Assembly: GCA_964372275.1 (NCBI GenBank)
Contig: CAYJRR010000028.1
Coordinates: 1 to 39,647 of the forward strand
Length of the DNA: 39,647 nucleotides
Direction: 5' to 3'
Source: an uncultured bacterium
GTDB taxonomy: Bacteria > CAYJRR01
The notes under the pieces are model-generated. The model did no database searches, was not told where the DNA came from, and was given only the letters and a program-made list of their open reading frames with translations. The position numbers and the translations under genes were made by a program. This document shows positions 1-29,379 of this stretch, piece by piece (within the stretch, counting starts at the first letter, position 1; the number at the start of each line of letters is the position of its first letter).

Positions 1-695
1 GGTTTGCTCGGGGCGCGGTGCTCGGTGAAGCCGGCCTCGCGGTGGCGCGCTTCGGGAAGGTGGCTGTCCCAGCAGGCGGTGGAGCAGAAGGTGAGCGCCA
101 GCCGGTTGCGGTTGCAGGTGGAGACGGTGCACTTGTACCAGCTCTGGCCCCAGGCGATCTCCTTCTTGCAGACCGAGCAGCGCATGTAGAAGAGGCGCCC
201 GGCGCCGTCGCCGGCGATCGCGCCCGACTTGGGGGGCGCGCGTTCGGGGAGGTCGCGGTGCAGCGCGAAGTAGCGCGCGACGACCGCCGCCACCTTCTTC
301 ACCTCCTCGAGGTCGGCGTCGGCGAACCCCGACCGGGTGTGGCTCTCGGCGTCGATCACGCCGTAGATCGTCTCGCCGGTCTTGATCAGCACCGCGAGCT
401 GGGCCTTCACGTCGAGGTTGTGCGCGACGTAGCCGGCGGCCTTGGCGACGTCGTCGATCCGTTGGTCGGCTCGCTGCGAGAGGGCCTGTCCACAGACCCC
501 CTTTCCCAGTGGAAGCCGCATCTGCTCGGTTGGCCTCCCGATGAACGACCGCAGGACGAGCTCGTTCCCCTCGACCGCGTAGACGCCGGTCCAGTCGAAA
601 CGGGGGCGGTCCTTGAGATAGGCGACCGCCAGCCCGTACGCCTTCTCCCGCGAGTTGGCGCCGACCAGCTTCTGCTCGAACTCTTCGTAGGTCAC
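1..695 (-). CDS. GAF domain (fRMsr/MsrC-like fold) fused to a ZZ-type Cys/His zinc finger; partial, runs off the left edge
   Basis: Not in the ORF track because there is no stop inside the window. Hand translation from GTG at 695 (RBS AAGAGGAG): MTYEEFEQKL...FDWTGVYAVEGNELVLRSFIGRPTEQMRLPLGKGVCGQAL...IYGVIDAESH (GAF), then MRCSVCKKEIAWGQSWYKCTVSTCNRNRLALTFCSTACWDSHLPEARHREAG (CxxC, Cx4C, Cx3C, Hx5H). Open for 231 codons. Confidence 0.85.
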   Translation of the reverse strand, partial: MTYEEFEQKLVGANSREKAYGLAVAYLKDRPRFDWTGVYAVEGNELVLRSFIGRPTEQMRLPLGKGVCGQALSQRADQRIDDVAKAAGYVAHNLDVKAQLAVLIKTGETIYGVIDAESHTRSGFADADLEEVKKVAAVVARYFALHRDLPERAPPKSGAIAGDGAGRLFYMRCSVCKKEIAWGQSWYKCTVSTCNRNRLALTFCSTACWDSHLPEARHREAGFTEHRAPSK

Positions 696-713
696 GGGAC
701 GAACGCTCCTCTT

Positions 714-2630
714 CTATCGACGCAGCTCGCCGGGGACCTTGGCCCCGTCGGCCGCGGCCAGCAGCCTCTCGTGCTCCGTCTCGAGACGCTTCGCCTCCGC
801 CTCCGACTCGCCGGAGATCCGGATCGCGGCGAGATAGACGGTGCGAAACGCCCGCTTGGCCTCGGCCGTGCTGCCGGCCGGTGGCGTCTTGTCTCCTGGA
901 GCGAAGCCGTACCGTTGTCGGAGGTAGCGGACCGTCCGGTCGGCGTCCGCGGCGCGCGCCTTCGCCGCGCGGAGCCGTTCCTGTCCATCGCGGAACCGGT
1001 CGATCCACCACGCGGCCGGCTTGTCCCCGAATCGCGGTCCGGCGTCGACGCCGTCGAGCCGGGCGCGGGCCGCGGATGCCGCGAGACGGACCGATGGGTC
1101 GCCGTGACGGGAGGCGATCCCGGCGAGCGCTTCCCGCGCGCCGGTGGCGTCCGGCCGGGCGGCGAGGGAGGAGATCGCCTGCCTGGCGACGTCGCCGTCC
1201 GCATCGCCGAGCGCCTGGATCAGCGGCGCCGCCGCAGAGCCCTCCCGGATCCGCCCGAGCGCCCAGGTGGCGCGCGACCGCACGCGCGGATCGGGATCGC
1301 GGAGCGCGAGGTCGGAAAGGAGCGGAAGCGTTTCGGGCAGCGCCAACTTTCCGAAGGTCGCGGCGGCGCGGGCGCGCCGGGCCGGTTCGCTCGACGCGAT
1401 CTCCGCGCGGGCGCGATCCACTTCGCCGGGTGCGGGCAGCAAGGGGTTCACGGAGTCCCCGACGTGGCCCGGCGGGCGATGAACGTCCCTCGCCTCGCGC
1501 GTGGCGCCGATTCCTTCGACGGAGGAGGCGCCCGTCGAGGCGGCCGTGCGGCCATCCCGCTCGCCGTCGCCCGACGTGCGCGCCGCGTCGGCGCGCTCGT
1601 CAGGCGCCGTCGCGCCGCCGTCGCCTCCACGGAACGCCCCCAGCGCGGCCCACAGTCCCCCCATCAGCGCCAGTCCCGACACGAAGTAGATCCACGCCGG
1701 CCGCGCGATGTCGGGCCGGACACGGGTGCGCGGTTCGGGGGCGTGCGCCGGCGCCAGTCCCGCCTGCACGGCCTCGAGGTCCTCGATCAGCTCCTCGTAC
1801 TCCTGGTAGCGGTCGTTCGGCTCCTTCTCCAGGCAGCGCTCGACGATCGCCCGCACCGCCTCCGGGATCGCGGGGTTCAATCGCCGAAGGTCGGGGATCG
1901 GATCCTTGACGTGCTTGATGATCAGCGAGACCGGGTTCTGCGCCTCGTAGGGCGTGAAGCCGGTGATCATGTGGTAGAAGGTCGCTCCCAGCGAATAGAG
2001 ATCGCTGCGGTGGTCGATCGCCTGACCCTGTCCCTGCTCCGGGCTCATGTAGTACGGGGTCCCCATCACGATCCCCGACTGTGTGAGGTGCCCGTCCCCC
2101 TCGGCGATCTTGGCCAGACCGAAGTCGGAGATCTTGACCGTGCCGTCGGCGTCGATCAGGAGGTTGTTCGGCTTGATGTCACGGTGGACGATCCCGGCGC
2201 GGCGCGCCGCGGAGAGCCCCTTCGCCGCCTGCACGATGATGTCGATCGAGTCCTCGACCGGCAGCACCCCCTTGTGTCGGAGCAGGTCGTAGACCGAGAC
2301 CCCTTCCGGGATGTACTCCATCGCGAAGCAGGGATACCCGTCGAACTCGCCCGTCCAGAAGATGCGGATGGCGTTGGCGTGGGCGAGCTTCGCCAGCGCC
2401 TTCGCCTCCTGCTCGAAGCGGCGGACGTTCTGCGGCTCGTCGACCTCGAACAGGATCTTCAGCGCGACGACGCGGTCAAGCAGCCGGTCGACCGCCTTGT
2501 AGACGACCCCCATGCCGCCTTCGCCGAGCTTTTCCTGGATGCGGTAGGGACCGACGTCGACGCCGATCAGCGGAGCCCCCGGTGCCCTCGCGCCCAAGCG
2601 GGTGGGACCCTTCTCCTGCCGGTGCTCCAT
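714..2630 (-). CDS. Membrane Ser/Thr protein kinase (Hanks type) with C-terminal HEAT repeats
   Basis: LGEGGMGVVY, VALK, HRDIKPNN, DFGLAK and GTPYYMSPEQ motifs; TM segment WIYFVSGLALMGGLWAALG; HEAT-like DPDPRVRSRATWALG and DADGDVARQAISSL. Start taken at ATG 2630 (MEHRQ). Confidence 0.92.
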   Translation of the reverse strand: MEHRQEKGPTRLGARAPGAPLIGVDVGPYRIQEKLGEGGMGVVYKAVDRLLDRVVALKILFEVDEPQNVRRFEQEAKALAKLAHANAIRIFWTGEFDGYPCFAMEYIPEGVSVYDLLRHKGVLPVEDSIDIIVQAAKGLSAARRAGIVHRDIKPNNLLIDADGTVKISDFGLAKIAEGDGHLTQSGIVMGTPYYMSPEQGQGQAIDHRSDLYSLGATFYHMITGFTPYEAQNPVSLIIKHVKDPIPDLRRLNPAIPEAVRAIVERCLEKEPNDRYQEYEELIEDLEAVQAGLAPAHAPEPRTRVRPDIARPAWIYFVSGLALMGGLWAALGAFRGGDGGATAPDERADAARTSGDGERDGRTAASTGASSVEGIGATREARDVHRPPGHVGDSVNPLLPAPGEVDRARAEIASSEPARRARAAATFGKLALPETLPLLSDLALRDPDPRVRSRATWALGRIREGSAAAPLIQALGDADGDVARQAISSLAARPDATGAREALAGIASRHGDPSVRLAASAARARLDGVDAGPRFGDKPAAWWIDRFRDGQERLRAAKARAADADRTVRYLRQRYGFAPGDKTPPAGSTAEAKRAFRTVYLAAIRISGESEAEAKRLETEHERLLAAADGAKVPGELRR

Positions 2631-2790
2631 CTGGTCGGAGTGTATTACGCGCGGCGGGAGGTGGCTACAGCCAGACTCAGCAGCGGCGTCGTCACACGTC
2701 GGTAAGCGGAGCACTCACTTCGTCGCCGCATCGTTCGGGGCGGCGGATGGCAACCCCGCGTAATGCCACATCGCGGGCGGTGGCCGGGCG

Positions 2791-2806
2791 AGGCACGGTC
2801 GTTGCC
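2791..2806 (+). promoter_or_regulatory. Putative sigma-54 (-24/-12) promoter
   Basis: AGGCACG-GTCG-TTGCC matches GGCAC-N5-TTGC with correct spacing; intergenic, ending 14 nt before ATG 2821. Confidence 0.5.
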
Positions 2807-2820
2807 CCTTGATCGCTCGA

Positions 2821-3660
2821 ATGAACGCGACGGTCCGGGCGGCGACGATCCTGATCGGTCTTCTGGCGGCGCGCGATCTCTTCGCCGCGCCCCGCGAGGT
2901 GTGCCACACCGACGGCGAGATCACGCTCCACGCCGACCGGTCGATCCACGCGCCGGCGGTCGGATCGTTGCGCGAGGGGGCGCCGGTCGATTACCGCCGG
3001 CTCTCGCGCGACCGGCGGTGGGTCGAGGTTCGGACGCGCGACGGCCGGCGCGGGTGGATCCAACGCAGCTACGTCTGCTACCGCGATGGCGCCCCGCTCC
3101 AACGCGAGCCGGCGGTGACGCCCTGGCCCGGGATCTGCCGCGGGAGGCGCGGCTTCGGCGTGCACATGCATCCGATCGCGCGTCAGCGGCGCTTCCACGA
3201 CGGTCAGGACTACGGCGCGCCGCAGGGGACGCCTCTACGGGCGCCGTTCGCCGGGACGGTCGTCCGCGCTGGGCGGACCCGCGGCTACGGCTACGCCGTG
3301 ACGATCCGCCGCGACAACGCCGACGGATCGGCCGACTTCTTCCTCTTCGGCCACCTGTGTTGCGGCCACCGGTTCCGGTACGGCCGTTCGTCGATCCGGG
3401 TGAAGCCCGGGCAGCACGTCGACGCCGGACAGGTGATCGGGCAGGTCGGGGACACCGGCTACTCGAAAGGCTCGCACCTCCACCTGCTCACGCGCCACGT
3501 GCCCGCCGGCGCCGCCTCGGCCTACCGCAATCCCGCCACCCGCGCCTTCTTTTCCCGCCGCTATGCCGTCGATCCCAACCGGCTGCTGAAGGTCCCCTCC
3601 TGCGGCGGCGAGCGCGTCGCCCGCGCGAAACGCGGCGGCGGGCGCTACCTCCGCCCGTAG
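2821..3660 (+). CDS. Secreted SH3b + M23 family metallopeptidase (peptidoglycan hydrolase-like)
   Basis: Signal peptide; WVEVRTRDGRRGWIQRSYV (SH3b); HDGQDY (HxxxD), GQVGDTGYSKGSHLH (HxH). Alternative start TTG 2809. Confidence 0.85.
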   Translation: MNATVRAATILIGLLAARDLFAAPREVCHTDGEITLHADRSIHAPAVGSLREGAPVDYRRLSRDRRWVEVRTRDGRRGWIQRSYVCYRDGAPLQREPAVTPWPGICRGRRGFGVHMHPIARQRRFHDGQDYGAPQGTPLRAPFAGTVVRAGRTRGYGYAVTIRRDNADGSADFFLFGHLCCGHRFRYGRSSIRVKPGQHVDAGQVIGQVGDTGYSKGSHLHLLTRHVPAGAASAYRNPATRAFFSRRYAVDPNRLLKVPSCGGERVARAKRGGGRYLRP

Positions 3661-27345: not shown

Positions 27346-28773
27346 TCACCAGATGCAGGCGTCGGCGGCGCCCTCTCCGAGGGGCTGGAAGAGGGTGAGC
27401 TTTCGCGCCAGCCACGGCGAGCGCGGCACCGCGTCCCGGCCGGCGACGAAGTGGCCGCTCTCTCCGTTCCGGCGGTACTCGACCTGTCCGGCCTCGGCTC
27501 GCGCGCAGAGCCGTGAGAACTCGAGGAAGGTGAGCTCCACCCCCTCCACGGCGTACGGCGCCAACGCGTCGATCGTGGTGGAGACCACCTGCACCCGATC
27601 GCGGAGGAGTCCCAGCAGGTCGGCGCTACGCGGGACGAGCCAGTGGTTCGACCGGTCCGCGTCCAGGTCGAGGTTCGAGTACATCGAGAAGGCCGTCCTC
27701 GTCTTCAGGCCGAGGTAGGGGCTCGAGCCGTTGAGGAACGCGAGCAGGACGAGGAGGATCGACGCCCGGCCGATCCGGAACGCGTGGTCCACCGGCCGCA
27801 GGCGCCGCTCGAACAGGCACCGCGCGCTCACCGCGATCACGGCCGATGCGTAGGCGAGCCATACCAGCTGGCGGGCATACCCCAACACCGGAATCGACGG
27901 GAGGCGCGCCATCGCCACCAGGTCGACCGGCATCACGACCGCCGCGATCCCGAGGAAGGCCGCGGCGAGGGCCCGCGAAAACCGCTCCGTGCGCCTCGCG
28001 GCGTCTCCCGCCCCGCCGAGACTCCGTTCGACCGCGTCGAGCGGCAGGAACAGGACCAGCCCGCAGGTCATCGCCGAGGAGAAGTCGAGAAAGTGCTTGA
28101 GGAAGTTCAGCGAGAGCCCGAAGTGGAACAGAAGCCCCAGGAAGACGCCGAAGGTGCGCGTCCGCCGGCCGAGGAGCAGCGGCACGAGCCCGCCTTCGAT
28201 CACGATCGCTCCCGCGATCGCGGCGGGGAAGAGGCGGTCGGGAAAGTAGGCGATGTCGCCGGCGAAGTCGGACGCGCAGCTGGTCGTGGGATCGGTGAAC
28301 GTCCCGTTGAGCTTGGCGAACGCGGCGAAGGCGTAGATCACGAGGACGAGCCAGCGACCGGTGGCGAAGGTCTCCCGCACCGTCGCGTCCCAGCCTCGTC
28401 GCGCCCGCGTCGCGTACGCGACGAGGAGGGCGAGCGCGACGAGCGTGATCGTCAGCCGGTGGTTGGGGACCTCGGGAAGCTCGTAGGCGGTGTTCACGAC
28501 GACGAGGGCGGCGACGGTTAACAGGCGGCCGGGCGCGTCCGGCCTGCGGAGTGACATCCATGCGGCGGCCGCCAACAGGGTCTGCAGCACGGCGCTGACG
28601 GGCGCCTGCACGAACGCGGCCGCCCAGTATTGGCTCGAGGTCAGGGAGAAGAGGACCGAGGCGGGGAGACAGATCGCGAGGAGCCGGCGCGCCAGAAGGT
28701 CGGTCGTGCCCGGGCTCGCGCCTTGGCTCGTGCGTTGGCCCGCGCCGGGGCTCGCGCTTTCGCCTTCCGCCAC
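27346..28773 (-). CDS. Polytopic membrane protein, HTTM-domain-like
   Basis: About 10 hydrophobic segments; PNH, YAFAAFAKLNGTF, GLLFH and SPYLGLKTRTAFSMYSNL. Start GTG 28773; the upstream part of the track ORF is antisense to real genes. Confidence 0.7.
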   Translation of the reverse strand: MAEGESASPGAGQRTSQGASPGTTDLLARRLLAICLPASVLFSLTSSQYWAAAFVQAPVSAVLQTLLAAAAWMSLRRPDAPGRLLTVAALVVVNTAYELPEVPNHRLTITLVALALLVAYATRARRGWDATVRETFATGRWLVLVIYAFAAFAKLNGTFTDPTTSCASDFAGDIAYFPDRLFPAAIAGAIVIEGGLVPLLLGRRTRTFGVFLGLLFHFGLSLNFLKHFLDFSSAMTCGLVLFLPLDAVERSLGGAGDAARRTERFSRALAAAFLGIAAVVMPVDLVAMARLPSIPVLGYARQLVWLAYASAVIAVSARCLFERRLRPVDHAFRIGRASILLVLLAFLNGSSPYLGLKTRTAFSMYSNLDLDADRSNHWLVPRSADLLGLLRDRVQVVSTTIDALAPYAVEGVELTFLEFSRLCARAEAGQVEYRRNGESGHFVAGRDAVPRSPWLARKLTLFQPLGEGAADACIW

Positions 28774-28797
28774 GCGGGCAGAGTATCCTACCGGCCG

Positions 28798-29379
28798 ATG
28801 GTCGAGGGCTGGAAGTTCCTCCAGATCTGGGAGCACACCGCCGTCCCGAAGTTGAAGGGGGCCGGCTACGCGGTGAAGGGGGACCACGCGTCGCGCAATC
28901 GATCGGGGATGCTCCAGCTCCTCTCGCTCAAACGCCAGGCGCCGTCCGGAGGGCACGGCGGTCGGTTCACCCTGCACCTCGCGGTGAGCCACGACTTCGC
29001 GCGCCGGTTCGAGGACGGCGGACCGATGCGCGGCGACGCCGTCGACGAGCAGGTCTTCCACGCCCGGCTCGGTCACCTGATGGAGGGCCGCGACGTCTGG
29101 TGGGAGTACGGCGCCGACGAGGCGGCCTGTGCGAAGACCGTCGCCGCCATCTCGGAGGTGGCGGTCGCCTACGCCGACGCCTGGTTCGAAAGCCTTTCCG
29201 ACGTCGGTTCGGCGTACCTCCTGCTCAAGAAGGGGGACCTCGGCCGGGAGAATCTGTGGAGTCTCGCTCTCTACGCGAAGGCGCTCGGGCACGCCGCCGA
29301 GGCCGTCGAGTGGCTCGACCGGATCGCGTCGCCGCCGGCGCACGTGTCGGCCCTGCGCCGGGAGTGGGCCCGTGCGTGA
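28798..29379 (+). CDS. Hypothetical protein, DUF4304-like
   Basis: AVPKLKGAGY..QLLSLKR..RFTLHLAV..ARLGHL..DVWWEY pattern, plus a short TPR-like tail. Confidence 0.55.
   Translation: MVEGWKFLQIWEHTAVPKLKGAGYAVKGDHASRNRSGMLQLLSLKRQAPSGGHGGRFTLHLAVSHDFARRFEDGGPMRGDAVDEQVFHARLGHLMEGRDVWWEYGADEAACAKTVAAISEVAVAYADAWFESLSDVGSAYLLLKKGDLGRENLWSLALYAKALGHAAEAVEWLDRIASPPAHVSALRREWARA

What the first reader, a model, noticed from the sequence alone, without database searches (positions are those of the whole stretch)
1..695. Hidden edge gene: GAF sensor fused to the ZZ-type zinc finger typical of bacterial 'ZZ histones'
Seen: an ORF missed by the track encodes a GAF domain followed by CSVCKKEIAWGQSWYKCTVSTCNRNRLALTFCSTACWDSHLPEARHREAG (8 potential Zn ligands). 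Knowledge (from memory, unverified): this CxxC..CxVSTCN..FCSxxCWxxHxPxxRHR signature is the N-terminal domain of Bdellovibrionota/Myxococcota ZZ histones (Bd3044-like), where a linker and histone fold follow. Inference: this may be a GAF-ZZ-histone, i.e. a small-molecule-sensing bacterial chromatin protein. I do not know this architecture as described. The histone fold itself would lie outside the window and is not visible.
Basis: partly seen in the sequence, partly recalled or inferred. Interest (0 to 1): 0.85.

Follow-up and report, generated by a model that had tools for sequence, protein, structure and literature searches.

The report
Sulfoxide-reductase-like GAF protein with ZZ finger
The edge gene is real, but it is a short two-domain protein, a methionine-sulfoxide-reductase-type GAF domain tied to the zinc finger otherwise known from bacterial 'ZZ histones', and it ends without any histone part.

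Summary
The ORF (window 3..695, minus strand, 231 aa, cut by the contig end) exists as described. Its Cys/His-rich C-terminus is truly homologous to the N-terminal zinc finger of ZZ histones: their profile matches it at E 4.6e-30, and all eight metal ligands are invariant.

The headline idea, a GAF-ZZ-histone, fails. All 17 of 17 full-length homologues (233-245 aa) stop 4-6 residues after the window's last codon. No fused form of 127-2000 aa was found.

The GAF domain is not a generic sensor. [quoted passage not shown] All 17 homologues keep the catalytic Cys, Glu and Asp residues. The window copy alone has Cys92->His, Glu99->Gln and Asp117->Glu, on a branch four times the family median, so it is probably non-catalytic.

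The bacterial ZZ module is mobile. Among the 150 best cluster representatives, 56 are ZZ plus one or two histone folds, 46 are ZZ-only mini-proteins and 2 are GAF+ZZ.

A Ser/Thr kinase with HEAT repeats lies directly upstream here and in the one other visible locus. A separate 69-aa histone lies on another contig.

The gene after the ORF could not be read. This is a rare new domain architecture of moderate interest.

The parts
1..695 (-). GAF-ZZ gene. Coding frame 3..695 gives 231 aa. Bases 1-2 are the first two letters of the next codon (CC, fits Pro). About 4-6 codons and the stop lie beyond the contig end.
246..695 (-). Residues 1-150: GAF domain of the type II free-Met-R-sulfoxide reductase (fRMsr/MsrC) kind.
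   Evidence: PDB profile hits 3ksg, 4mmn, 1vhm, 1f5m and 3mmh at E 1.5e-26 to 3.7e-15. Foldseek top hits are fRMsr structures, TMt 0.75-0.84. pLDDT is about 90.
420..422 (-). Codon CAC = His92, at the position of the catalytic Cys (Thermoplasma Cys84). It is Cys in 17 of 17 homologues and 5 of 5 outgroup ORFs.
399..401 (-). Codon CAG = Gln99, at the position of the conserved catalytic or substrate-binding Glu (yeast Glu132). It is Glu in 17 of 17 homologues.
198..245 (-). Residues 151-166: variable, low-confidence linker (flexible tether).
   Evidence: pLDDT 53-57, with residues 156-165 under 50. Length-variable in alignment A1.
3..197 (-). Residues 167-231: bacterial ZZ-type zinc finger with two predicted Zn sites. 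C173/C176/C204/C208 form the C4 site and C189/C194/H212/H218 the C2H2 site.
   Evidence: A2 profile E 4.6e-30. Ligands invariant. Domain model pLDDT 91.1. ZZ domains rank top in both fold searches, though weakly. Ligand scheme from PMC11390915 passages.
706..713 (-). Shine-Dalgarno-like AAGAGGAG, 10 nt before the GTG start, inside the 18-nt gap after the kinase stop codon.
   Evidence: read directly. No terminator-like site on the minus strand between the genes.
714..2714 (-). Upstream gene, probably co-transcribed: Ser/Thr protein kinase (residues 57-304) with C-terminal HEAT repeats (439-518). It is syntenic in L042.
   Evidence: Pfam Pkinase E 2.3e-48 and HEAT_2 E 8.4e-16. 45% identity over 258 aa to the ORF upstream of the GAF-ZZ gene in L042.

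Best explanation
The gene encodes a cytoplasmic protein of about 236 aa with two independently folding domains joined by a flexible linker of roughly 16 residues. The N-terminal domain is a type II fRMsr/MsrC-like GAF domain. The C-terminal domain is a two-zinc ZZ-type finger homologous to the N-terminal domain of bacterial ZZ histones. The protein ends a few residues beyond the contig edge and has no histone fold. These points are shown.

The rest is inferred. In most family members the GAF domain is an active free-Met-R-sulfoxide reductase. The ZZ finger acts as a tethered targeting or interaction module that brings its cargo to a still unknown ZZ ligand. That cargo is an fRMsr here and a histone fold in ZZ histones. 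The finger's basic, conserved polar surface suggests an acidic partner or nucleic acid.

The window's own copy has replaced the nucleophilic Cys and the conserved Glu, while keeping the fold, Trp35, Tyr39, Asp115 and an intact ZZ. It therefore most likely no longer turns over substrate. It would act as a binding-only or scaffolding variant, possibly working with the co-oriented upstream Ser/Thr kinase.
For: Length and end: 17 of 17 full-length homologues are 233-245 aa and end 4-6 residues after the window's last residue.

fRMsr identity: PDB profile hits are fRMsr entries at E 1.5e-26 to 3.7e-15. Foldseek ranks 1-10, 12, 14 and 15 include fRMsr-titled entries (3ksf, 3ksg, 4mmn, 4mn7, 3mmh, 3rfb) and the YebR, yeast GAF and other GAF entries also found.

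Active-site mapping: Thermoplasma Cys60 and Cys84 align with family C68 and C92 (alignment; roles from the PMC6211008 passage). The yeast residue set is Trp66, Tyr70, Glu132, Asp149 and Asp151 (bioRxiv 2021.02.26.433065 passage). 17 of 17 homologues have W35, Y39, C68, C92, E99, D115 and D117. The window has H92, Q99 and E117, and is the lone deviant at 18 otherwise invariant columns, 15 of them in the GAF domain. Its end branch is 0.5 against a median of 0.12.

ZZ: E 4.6e-30 to the ZZ-histone profile; ligands invariant; ZZ identity to homologues is 65-77% against 53-69% for the GAF domain.

Tether: linker pLDDT 53-57.

Module mobility: of 150 representatives, 51 are ZZ+histone, 5 are ZZ+2 histone folds, 46 are ZZ-only and 2 are GAF+ZZ. 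Atlas clusters of 69-72 aa hold 80-145 members.

Kinase synteny.
Against: - No direct evidence shows what the ZZ finger binds.
- Stand-alone ZZ genes have no conserved neighbours.
- The fold match to eukaryotic ZZ domains is weak (Foldseek best E 0.074; VIA best Z 4.7). Pfam's ZZ model is not among the listed hits for any of the 50 bacterial ZZ sequences.
- Loss of catalysis in the window copy is inferred from residues only. A His at the nucleophile position could have another role.
- The inner forks of the family tree are mostly unresolved, so 'accelerated nested branch' rests on branch length and nearest-neighbour identity.
- Kinase linkage is seen in only 1 other locus.
- The window's own stop codon and downstream gene were not read.
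Confidence: 0.6

Rival explanations
1. One-component sensor or regulator. The fRMsr-type pocket senses free Met-R-sulfoxide or another small ligand as a read-out of oxidative stress. The basic ZZ finger is the output domain that binds DNA, RNA or the nucleoid.
For: - Sensor-plus-small-binding-domain is the usual bacterial one-component layout (general knowledge).
- The window copy keeps pocket residues W35, Y39 and D115 but lacks the nucleophile, as expected for a binder.
- By my own count from the translation, the ZZ domain has 11 Lys/Arg against 5 Asp/Glu.
- The same finger sits on DNA-binding histone folds.
- Weak fold hits include nucleic-acid-associated fingers such as L24e and YacG.
Against: - The linker is long, variable and predicted disordered. 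That fits tethering better than allosteric coupling.
- 17 of 17 homologues keep a complete catalytic set, which points to an enzyme.
- No DNA-binding test was possible.
Confidence: 0.2
2. Redox-relay enzyme. The zinc-thiolate finger supplies the resolving thiol that type II fRMsr lacks, or acts as a zinc redox switch. The fusion would then be a self-contained reductase or oxidation switch, and the window copy would still be functional in some form.
For: [quoted passage not shown]
- The family lacks a Cys at the Cys91(yeast)-equivalent position; it has H58.
- The ZZ finger carries six conserved Cys.
Against: - The same finger occurs on histones and alone, where no sulfenic acid needs resolving.
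- All Cys are predicted metal ligands.
- The window copy keeps the ZZ intact although its nucleophile is gone.
Confidence: 0.1
3. The window copy is simply a decaying gene (relaxed selection) in this genome, with no new role.
For: 18 lineage-specific changes at otherwise invariant positions and a long branch. MsrA and MsrB are present elsewhere in the genome.
Against: - The frame is open over all 231 visible codons with a good ribosome-binding site.
- 78 columns remain invariant including the window.
- All eight Zn ligands are intact, and only 2 deviant positions fall in the ZZ domain.
Confidence: 0.07
4. One reading: a GAF-ZZ-histone fusion whose histone fold lies just beyond the window.
For: The ZZ finger is homologous to that of ZZ histones. 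The window's stop codon itself is not visible.
Against: - 17 of 17 homologues stop 4-6 residues later.
- No hit of 246-405 aa combines GAF and ZZ, and none was found at 406-2000 aa.
- Only 2 of 150 ZZ representatives have a GAF domain, and neither has a histone hit.
Confidence: 0.03

Closest known systems
[quoted passage not shown] Thermoplasma acidophilum Ta0848 (PDB 4mmn)
   Same: - The GAF fold matches (Foldseek E 7.8e-11, TMt 0.84) and so does the sequence (E 3.3e-26).
- The motif layout is shared: W..Y, G.G.C, YLAC, SE.VV, IDIDS.
- There is no Cys at the first resolving position. Family members keep both functional Cys.
   Different: - It carries a C-terminal linker and a ZZ zinc finger that no characterised fRMsr has.
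- The window copy lacks the nucleophilic Cys (His92) and the conserved Glu (Gln99).
Bacterial ZZ histones
   Same: - The zinc finger is homologous (E 4.6e-30).
- Seven of the eight ligand positions given for D0LYE7 match at a constant offset of 153.
- A flexible linker joins the finger to a second domain.
   Different: - The finger is C-terminal, not N-terminal.
- The partner domain is an fRMsr-type GAF, not an alpha3 histone fold.
- No histone fold is present in 17 of 17 homologues.
Stand-alone bacterial ZZ mini-proteins (about 65-100 aa, mostly Myxococcota)
   Same: They are the closest relatives of the window's ZZ after its own family. Six of the eight next-best representatives (P0050-P0057) are ZZ-only. 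Atlas clusters score 0.96-0.97.
   Different: They have no second domain. As far as my searches show they are uncharacterised, and Pfam and NCBIfam have no model for them.
Eukaryotic ZZ domains (p62/SQSTM1, HERC2, ZZZ3, p300, Nbr1, Ada2)
   Same: The fold is the best-ranking class in two independent aligners, and both have a cross-brace two-zinc topology.
   Different: - Scores are weak (E >= 0.074; Z <= 4.7).
- There is no sequence match to Pfam ZZ among the listed families.
- Weak sequence hits go instead to FCS-type and MYND fingers.
- The published comparison says the N-terminus-binding pocket is not conserved in the bacterial form.

Membership tests
fRMsr / MsrC (free Met-R-sulfoxide reductase) | GAF fold of the fRMsr subfamily | tested here: met
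   Profile hits to solved fRMsr at E 1.5e-26 to 3.7e-15. Foldseek top ranks are fRMsr, TMt 0.75-0.84.
fRMsr / MsrC (free Met-R-sulfoxide reductase) | Catalytic nucleophile Cys (Ta Cys84 / yeast Cys125) | tested here: not met
   The window has His92. 17 of 17 homologues and 5 of 5 outgroup ORFs have Cys. The family as a whole meets this feature; the window copy does not.
fRMsr / MsrC (free Met-R-sulfoxide reductase) | Second functional Cys in the G.G.C motif (Ta Cys60 / yeast Cys101) | tested here: met
   C68 is invariant, window included.
fRMsr / MsrC (free Met-R-sulfoxide reductase) | Substrate-binding or catalytic Trp, Tyr, Glu, Asp, Asp (yeast 66, 70, 132, 149, 151) | tested here: inconclusive
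   W35, Y39 and D115 are kept. E99->Q and D117->E occur in the window only. The mapping to yeast numbers is by motif spacing, not by a printed alignment to 1f5m.
fRMsr / MsrC (free Met-R-sulfoxide reductase) | Reduction of free Met-R-sulfoxide | not testable with these tools
   Needs an enzyme assay.
ZZ histones | ZZ-type finger with C4 and C2H2 zinc sites | tested here: met
   A2 profile positions 5-67 at E 4.6e-30. Eight ligands are invariant. Scheme from PMC11390915.
ZZ histones | C-terminal alpha3 (bacterial-dimer-like) histone fold in the same protein | tested here: not met
   17 of 17 homologues end 4-6 aa after the ZZ. A histone HMM hits neither GAF+ZZ representative. The window's own last codons are not visible.
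ZZ histones | Finger at the N-terminus | tested here: not met
   The finger occupies residues 167-231 of about 236.
Eukaryote-type ZZ domain (Pfam PF00569) | Sequence match to the Pfam ZZ model | tested here: not met
   Not listed at E <= 1 for the window protein. Not among the 25 families shown, of 29 matched, for the 50 bacterial ZZ sequences.
Eukaryote-type ZZ domain (Pfam PF00569) | ZZ cross-brace fold | tested here: inconclusive
   ZZ domains rank top, but Foldseek best E is 0.074 and VIA best Z is 4.7 with none >= 5.
Eukaryote-type ZZ domain (Pfam PF00569) | Acidic pocket that binds a free protein N-terminus | not tested
   [quoted passage not shown] I did not check this myself.
GAF domain (Pfam PF01590) | Score over Pfam's gathering cut-off | tested here: met
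   27.8 bits against a cut-off of 22.4.

The most novel reading that the evidence does not exclude
The bacterial ZZ finger is a general nucleoid or partner-docking module, and the GAF-ZZ proteins couple methionine oxidation to chromatin. An fRMsr-type domain, catalytic in most lineages and reduced to a Met-sulfoxide-binding sensor in this one, would be docked by its ZZ finger onto the same target that ZZ histones engage. One candidate target is the invariant MAKK... tail of the lineage's stand-alone histone, by analogy with eukaryotic ZZ readers of the histone H3 N-terminus. That would make it a redox-responsive reader of bacterial chromatin under Ser/Thr-kinase control.
Probability: 0.08. Interest if true: 0.8.

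Novelty: new variant of a known kind. Interest (0 to 1): 0.4.

Why it matters
The function of the zinc finger on bacterial ZZ histones is unknown; the defining paper could only argue against tail binding. This gene shows that the same finger is a mobile module. It also occurs alone as an abundant mini-protein, and it is fused to a methionine-sulfoxide-reductase domain.

This separates the finger's function from the histone fold. It also gives two simpler proteins in which to study the finger. Finally, it gives a natural pair for asking what an fRMsr fold does once catalysis is lost: Cys-bearing homologues against the Cys-less window copy.

It does not add a new kind of bacterial chromatin protein.

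Tried and rejected
1. Extending the gene. The window starts at the contig end and no other G000 contig overlaps it. Laying contigs of three runs showed one contig in X1 (943 nt) running 286 nt past window position 1 and one in X3 running 97 nt past. The tool prints no letters beyond the stretch, so the stop codon and the next gene stay unread. No RNA holder was listed.
2. ZZ-histone binding in trans. Complex prediction with the G000 histone dimer (A5) and the ZZ domain (A4) scored 0.01. This is no verdict, neither for nor against.
3. Guilt by association for stand-alone ZZ genes. Neighbours in L019, L033, L039, L040 and L041 are unrelated housekeeping genes; L032's neighbours were listed but not scanned.
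4. The metagenome scan with a GAF-only alignment returned only 1 locus, because the patterns were too degenerate (595 raw matches). No full-length GAF-ZZ was found in the species-representative genomes: all 23 loci were ZZ-only matches.
5. The 156-aa ORF between the kinase and GAF-ZZ genes in L042 has no Pfam family and was not found in G000 with this query.
6. The second GAF hit in G000 (C8) is an ordinary tandem-GAF protein, not an fRMsr.
7. Primary fRMsr papers (PMC2915739, PMC1887594) are not held. Residue roles therefore come from a review passage and a preprint passage.
Supplementary figures of PMC11390915 (ZZ logo, pocket comparison) were not seen.

Full report
**Observation**

The minus strand of window 3..695 carries an open frame of 231 codons. 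It starts at a GTG at 695..693 and runs off the left edge. AAGAGGAG at 713..706 precedes the start, and the stop codon of the upstream gene lies at 716..714. The window is G000:C28:1-39647, so position 1 is a contig end, and no other contig of the 225-contig assembly overlaps it.

The quoted Cys/His stretch is present letter for letter. The frame is a real gene. 17 full-length homologues of 54-71% identity exist in metagenome-derived protein sets, and Pfam GAF scores over its cut-off.

**Where the protein ends**

The 17 full-length homologues are 233-245 aa long. Aligned to the window protein, all 17 end 4-6 residues after its last residue, with short basic tails. The two leftover bases at the window edge are CC, which fits the Pro that all 17 have at the next position.

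A GAF-ZZ-histone would be roughly 330-450 aa. In the 127-405 aa class no hit that covers both GAF and ZZ exceeds 245 aa. In the 406-2000 aa class nothing scored, which the tool itself calls weak evidence. The histone-fusion reading is therefore rejected for the family, and by inference for the window copy.

**The GAF domain**

A profile of the family hits solved free-methionine-R-sulfoxide reductases:
- Staphylococcus aureus 3ksg/3ksf, Thermoplasma Ta0848 (4mmn), E. coli YebR (1vhm), yeast (1f5m) and Neisseria (3mmh), at E 1.5e-26 to 3.7e-15.
- Ordinary cyclic-nucleotide or signalling GAF domains score only E 0.004 or worse.

The AlphaFold model (mean pLDDT 81.4, GAF blocks about 90) finds the same enzymes first in Foldseek, with TM normalised to the target of 0.75-0.84.

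For the Thermoplasma type II enzyme, a review passage states three things. Cys84 is the nucleophile, Cys60 is needed, and no intramolecular resolving Cys exists (PMC6211008). Counting along the printed alignment puts Cys60 on family C68 and Cys84 on family C92. A preprint passage lists yeast Cys125 in an H[IV]xCD motif plus Trp66, Tyr70, Glu132, Asp149 and Asp151 as strictly conserved. By motif spacing these correspond to C92, W35, Y39, E99, D115 and D117.

All 17 homologues carry this full set. The window protein has H92, Q99 and E117, and also Q58 for the family's H58. The window is the lone deviant at 18 columns that are otherwise invariant among 18 sequences, 15 of them in the GAF domain. 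No other sequence is the lone deviant at more than 5 columns.

Five stand-alone fRMsr-like ORFs from other genomes also keep the Cys, Glu and Asp set. In a maximum-likelihood tree the window's end branch is 0.5 against a median of 0.12. Its nearest neighbour, P0001, has a branch of 0.035. The inner forks are mostly unresolved, so I do not claim a precise position.

The codons were checked by eye: CAC at 422..420 and CAG at 401..399. G000 has MsrA and MsrB genes elsewhere. With this family's profile it has no other fRMsr-type match: the only other hit is a tandem-GAF protein on C8.

**The zinc finger**

Twenty-eight further hits (149-198 aa) match only the last 20-33% of the query. That C-terminal part matches the solved Bdellovibrio histone HBb at E 5.2e-19.

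These are the ZZ histones of Schwab et al. 2024. In passages of that paper I read the following (PMC11390915):
- the finger has a C4 and a C2H2 zinc site;
- it resembles the HERC2, p300 and ZZZ3 ZZ domains;
- it lacks their pocket residues;
- its function is unknown.

The ZZ-histone profile hits the window ORF at E 4.6e-30, and hits nothing else in G000 with its finger part. The eight ligands are invariant in the GAF-ZZ family. Seven of them coincide with the positions given for D0LYE7 at a constant offset of 153. The eighth is printed in the paper as C53, whereas the spacing in all my sequences corresponds to 55.

Modelled alone with 50 sequences, the domain reaches pLDDT 91.1. Foldseek gives no match at E <= 0.001. 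Its best rows are p62, HERC2, KCMF1 and BIG ZZ domains (best E 0.074), mixed with MYND, TRASH, YacG, NosL and L24e. An independent all-against-representatives alignment puts the ZZ domains of Rsc8, Nbr1, Ada2, ZZZ3, p300, HERC2 and p62 at Z 3.8-4.7, with none at 5 or more.

By sequence, Pfam's ZZ model is not among the listed hits. The sub-threshold hits are FCS-type and MYND fingers: zf-FCS in 14 of 50, zf-FLZ in 9 of 50 and zf-MYND in 8 of 50. NCBIfam has nothing. So homology to the ZZ-histone finger is firm, and 'ZZ' as a fold label is plausible but weakly scored.

**How widespread each architecture is**

The finger alone, searched against 1.84 billion cluster representatives, finds 250 at E <= 0.001 and 169 at E <= 1e-10. 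I classified the 150 listed with HMMs built from my alignments:

| Architecture | Representatives (of 150) |
|---|---|
| ZZ + one histone fold | 51 |
| ZZ + two histone folds | 5 |
| ZZ-only | 46 |
| ZZ + tail over 25 aa, no histone hit (some may be fragments) | 34 |
| C-terminal ZZ with more than 30 unexplained residues before it | 12 |
| GAF+ZZ (P0012, and the fragment P0049) | 2 |

Six of the eight representatives ranked just after the GAF-ZZ ones (P0050-P0057) are ZZ-only. The protein atlas places the window's finger next to clusters of 69-72 aa with 80-145 members, mostly Myxococcota where a phylum is known. The mini-proteins are therefore a real class.

In named species-representative genomes, all 23 loci found were ZZ-only matches from Myxococcota, Polyangiaceae and Bdellovibrionales MAGs. 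They include ZZ histones, double-histone forms (L028, L036) and mini-proteins. None was a GAF-ZZ.

**Context**

The gene directly upstream (714..2714, minus strand) is a Ser/Thr kinase with HEAT repeats. It is separated from the GAF-ZZ start by 18 nt, with no terminator-like site on that strand. In the only other locus where the upstream side is visible (L042, 1952 bp), the C-terminal 258 residues of the same kind of protein (45% identity, E 4e-47) lie upstream, with one extra 156-aa ORF in between.

G000 is the only genome of its phylum in the held set, and the 40 'relatives' offered share only the domain with it.

G000 does encode a histone: a 69-aa protein on contig C36 (L017 1600..1809). 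It matches solved bacterial histones (9qt0 at 1.2e-9, HBb at 2.8e-5). It has 20 close homologues, 19 of which begin MAKK or MATK and carry a Lys-rich tail. It lies about 7 kb from the end of its 36.4-kb contig, between unrelated genes. It is therefore not the gene next to GAF-ZZ.

**Mechanism**

Shown: there are two autonomous domains on a disordered, length-variable tether. The enzyme-type domain is intact in 17 of 17 relatives and degenerate here. The finger is more conserved than the GAF domain (65-77% against 53-69% identity to the window) and keeps all its ligands.

Inferred: the finger is a docking module shared with ZZ histones and the mini-proteins. The family enzyme reduces free Met-R-sulfoxide at whatever site the finger docks to. 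The window copy has become a non-catalytic binder or scaffold. The rivals, with my odds in the Rival explanations section, are a ligand-sensing regulator with the finger as nucleic-acid-binding output, a zinc-thiolate redox relay, and plain decay.

**Prior knowledge**

No paper in the searched library holds both 'ZZ domain' and 'GAF domain'. The ZZ-histone paper, in the passages I read, mentions neither stand-alone fingers nor GAF fusions; its supplements were not available. Database sources label homologues only as 'L-methionine (R)-S-oxide reductase' or 'GAF domain-containing protein'. Bd3044 is described as the longer, less conserved second histone of B. bacteriovorus (PMC10627809 passages).

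**Verdict**

The histone-fusion interpretation is rejected. What remains is a rare new domain architecture, an fRMsr-type GAF plus the bacterial ZZ finger, with a lineage-specific loss of the catalytic residues in this genome.

Noticed in passing
L017:1600-1809 (+) = G000 contig C36, about 28755-28964: A stand-alone 69-aa histone-fold protein with a Lys-rich N-terminal tail beginning MAKK. It matches solved bacterial histones (9qt0 at 1.2e-9, HBb at 2.8e-5). It has 20 homologue clusters at 62-83% identity, all from unbinned or unclassified bacteria.
   Followed up: partly
G000 as a whole: The parent genome (4.64 Mb, 225 contigs, 94.6% complete) is the only genome of its phylum in the held species set. 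All 40 'relatives' offered share only the domain with it.
   Followed up: partly
L028:5083-6660, L036:5959-6720; proteins P0071, P0073, P0124, P0173, P0186: ZZ finger followed by two histone folds in one chain (ZZ + double histone). Five of the 150 representatives have this form.
   Followed up: partly
L019, L032, L033, L040, L041; proteins such as P0052, P0054, P0057: Stand-alone ZZ mini-proteins of about 65-100 aa are as common as ZZ histones among the representatives (46 of 150). They form atlas clusters of 80-145 members. Their gene neighbourhoods are not conserved.
   Followed up: yes
window 2809..3660 (+): A divergently oriented gene for an M23 peptidase with a bacterial SH3 domain. The 94-nt gap 2715..2808 would hold the promoters of both transcription units.
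   Followed up: no
L042:847-1317 (+): A 156-aa ORF with no Pfam family lies between the kinase/HEAT gene and the GAF-ZZ gene in the one related metagenome locus. It was not found in G000 with this query.
   Followed up: partly
P0180 (245 aa): This representative combines a 43-residue ArgJ C-terminal fragment with an internal ZZ finger. It may be a gene-call artefact rather than a true fusion.
   Followed up: no
window 142: One assembly contig of run X1 reads G for C here (depth 4.85). This would change Ser185 to Thr at a variable position of the finger. It is probably strain variation or an error.
   Followed up: no
PMC11390915, Fig. 4 legend: The legend lists the fourth Cys of the C4 site of D0LYE7 as C53. 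The FCSxxC spacing in all ZZ sequences I aligned corresponds to position 55. This may be a misprint or a real difference in that protein.
   Followed up: no
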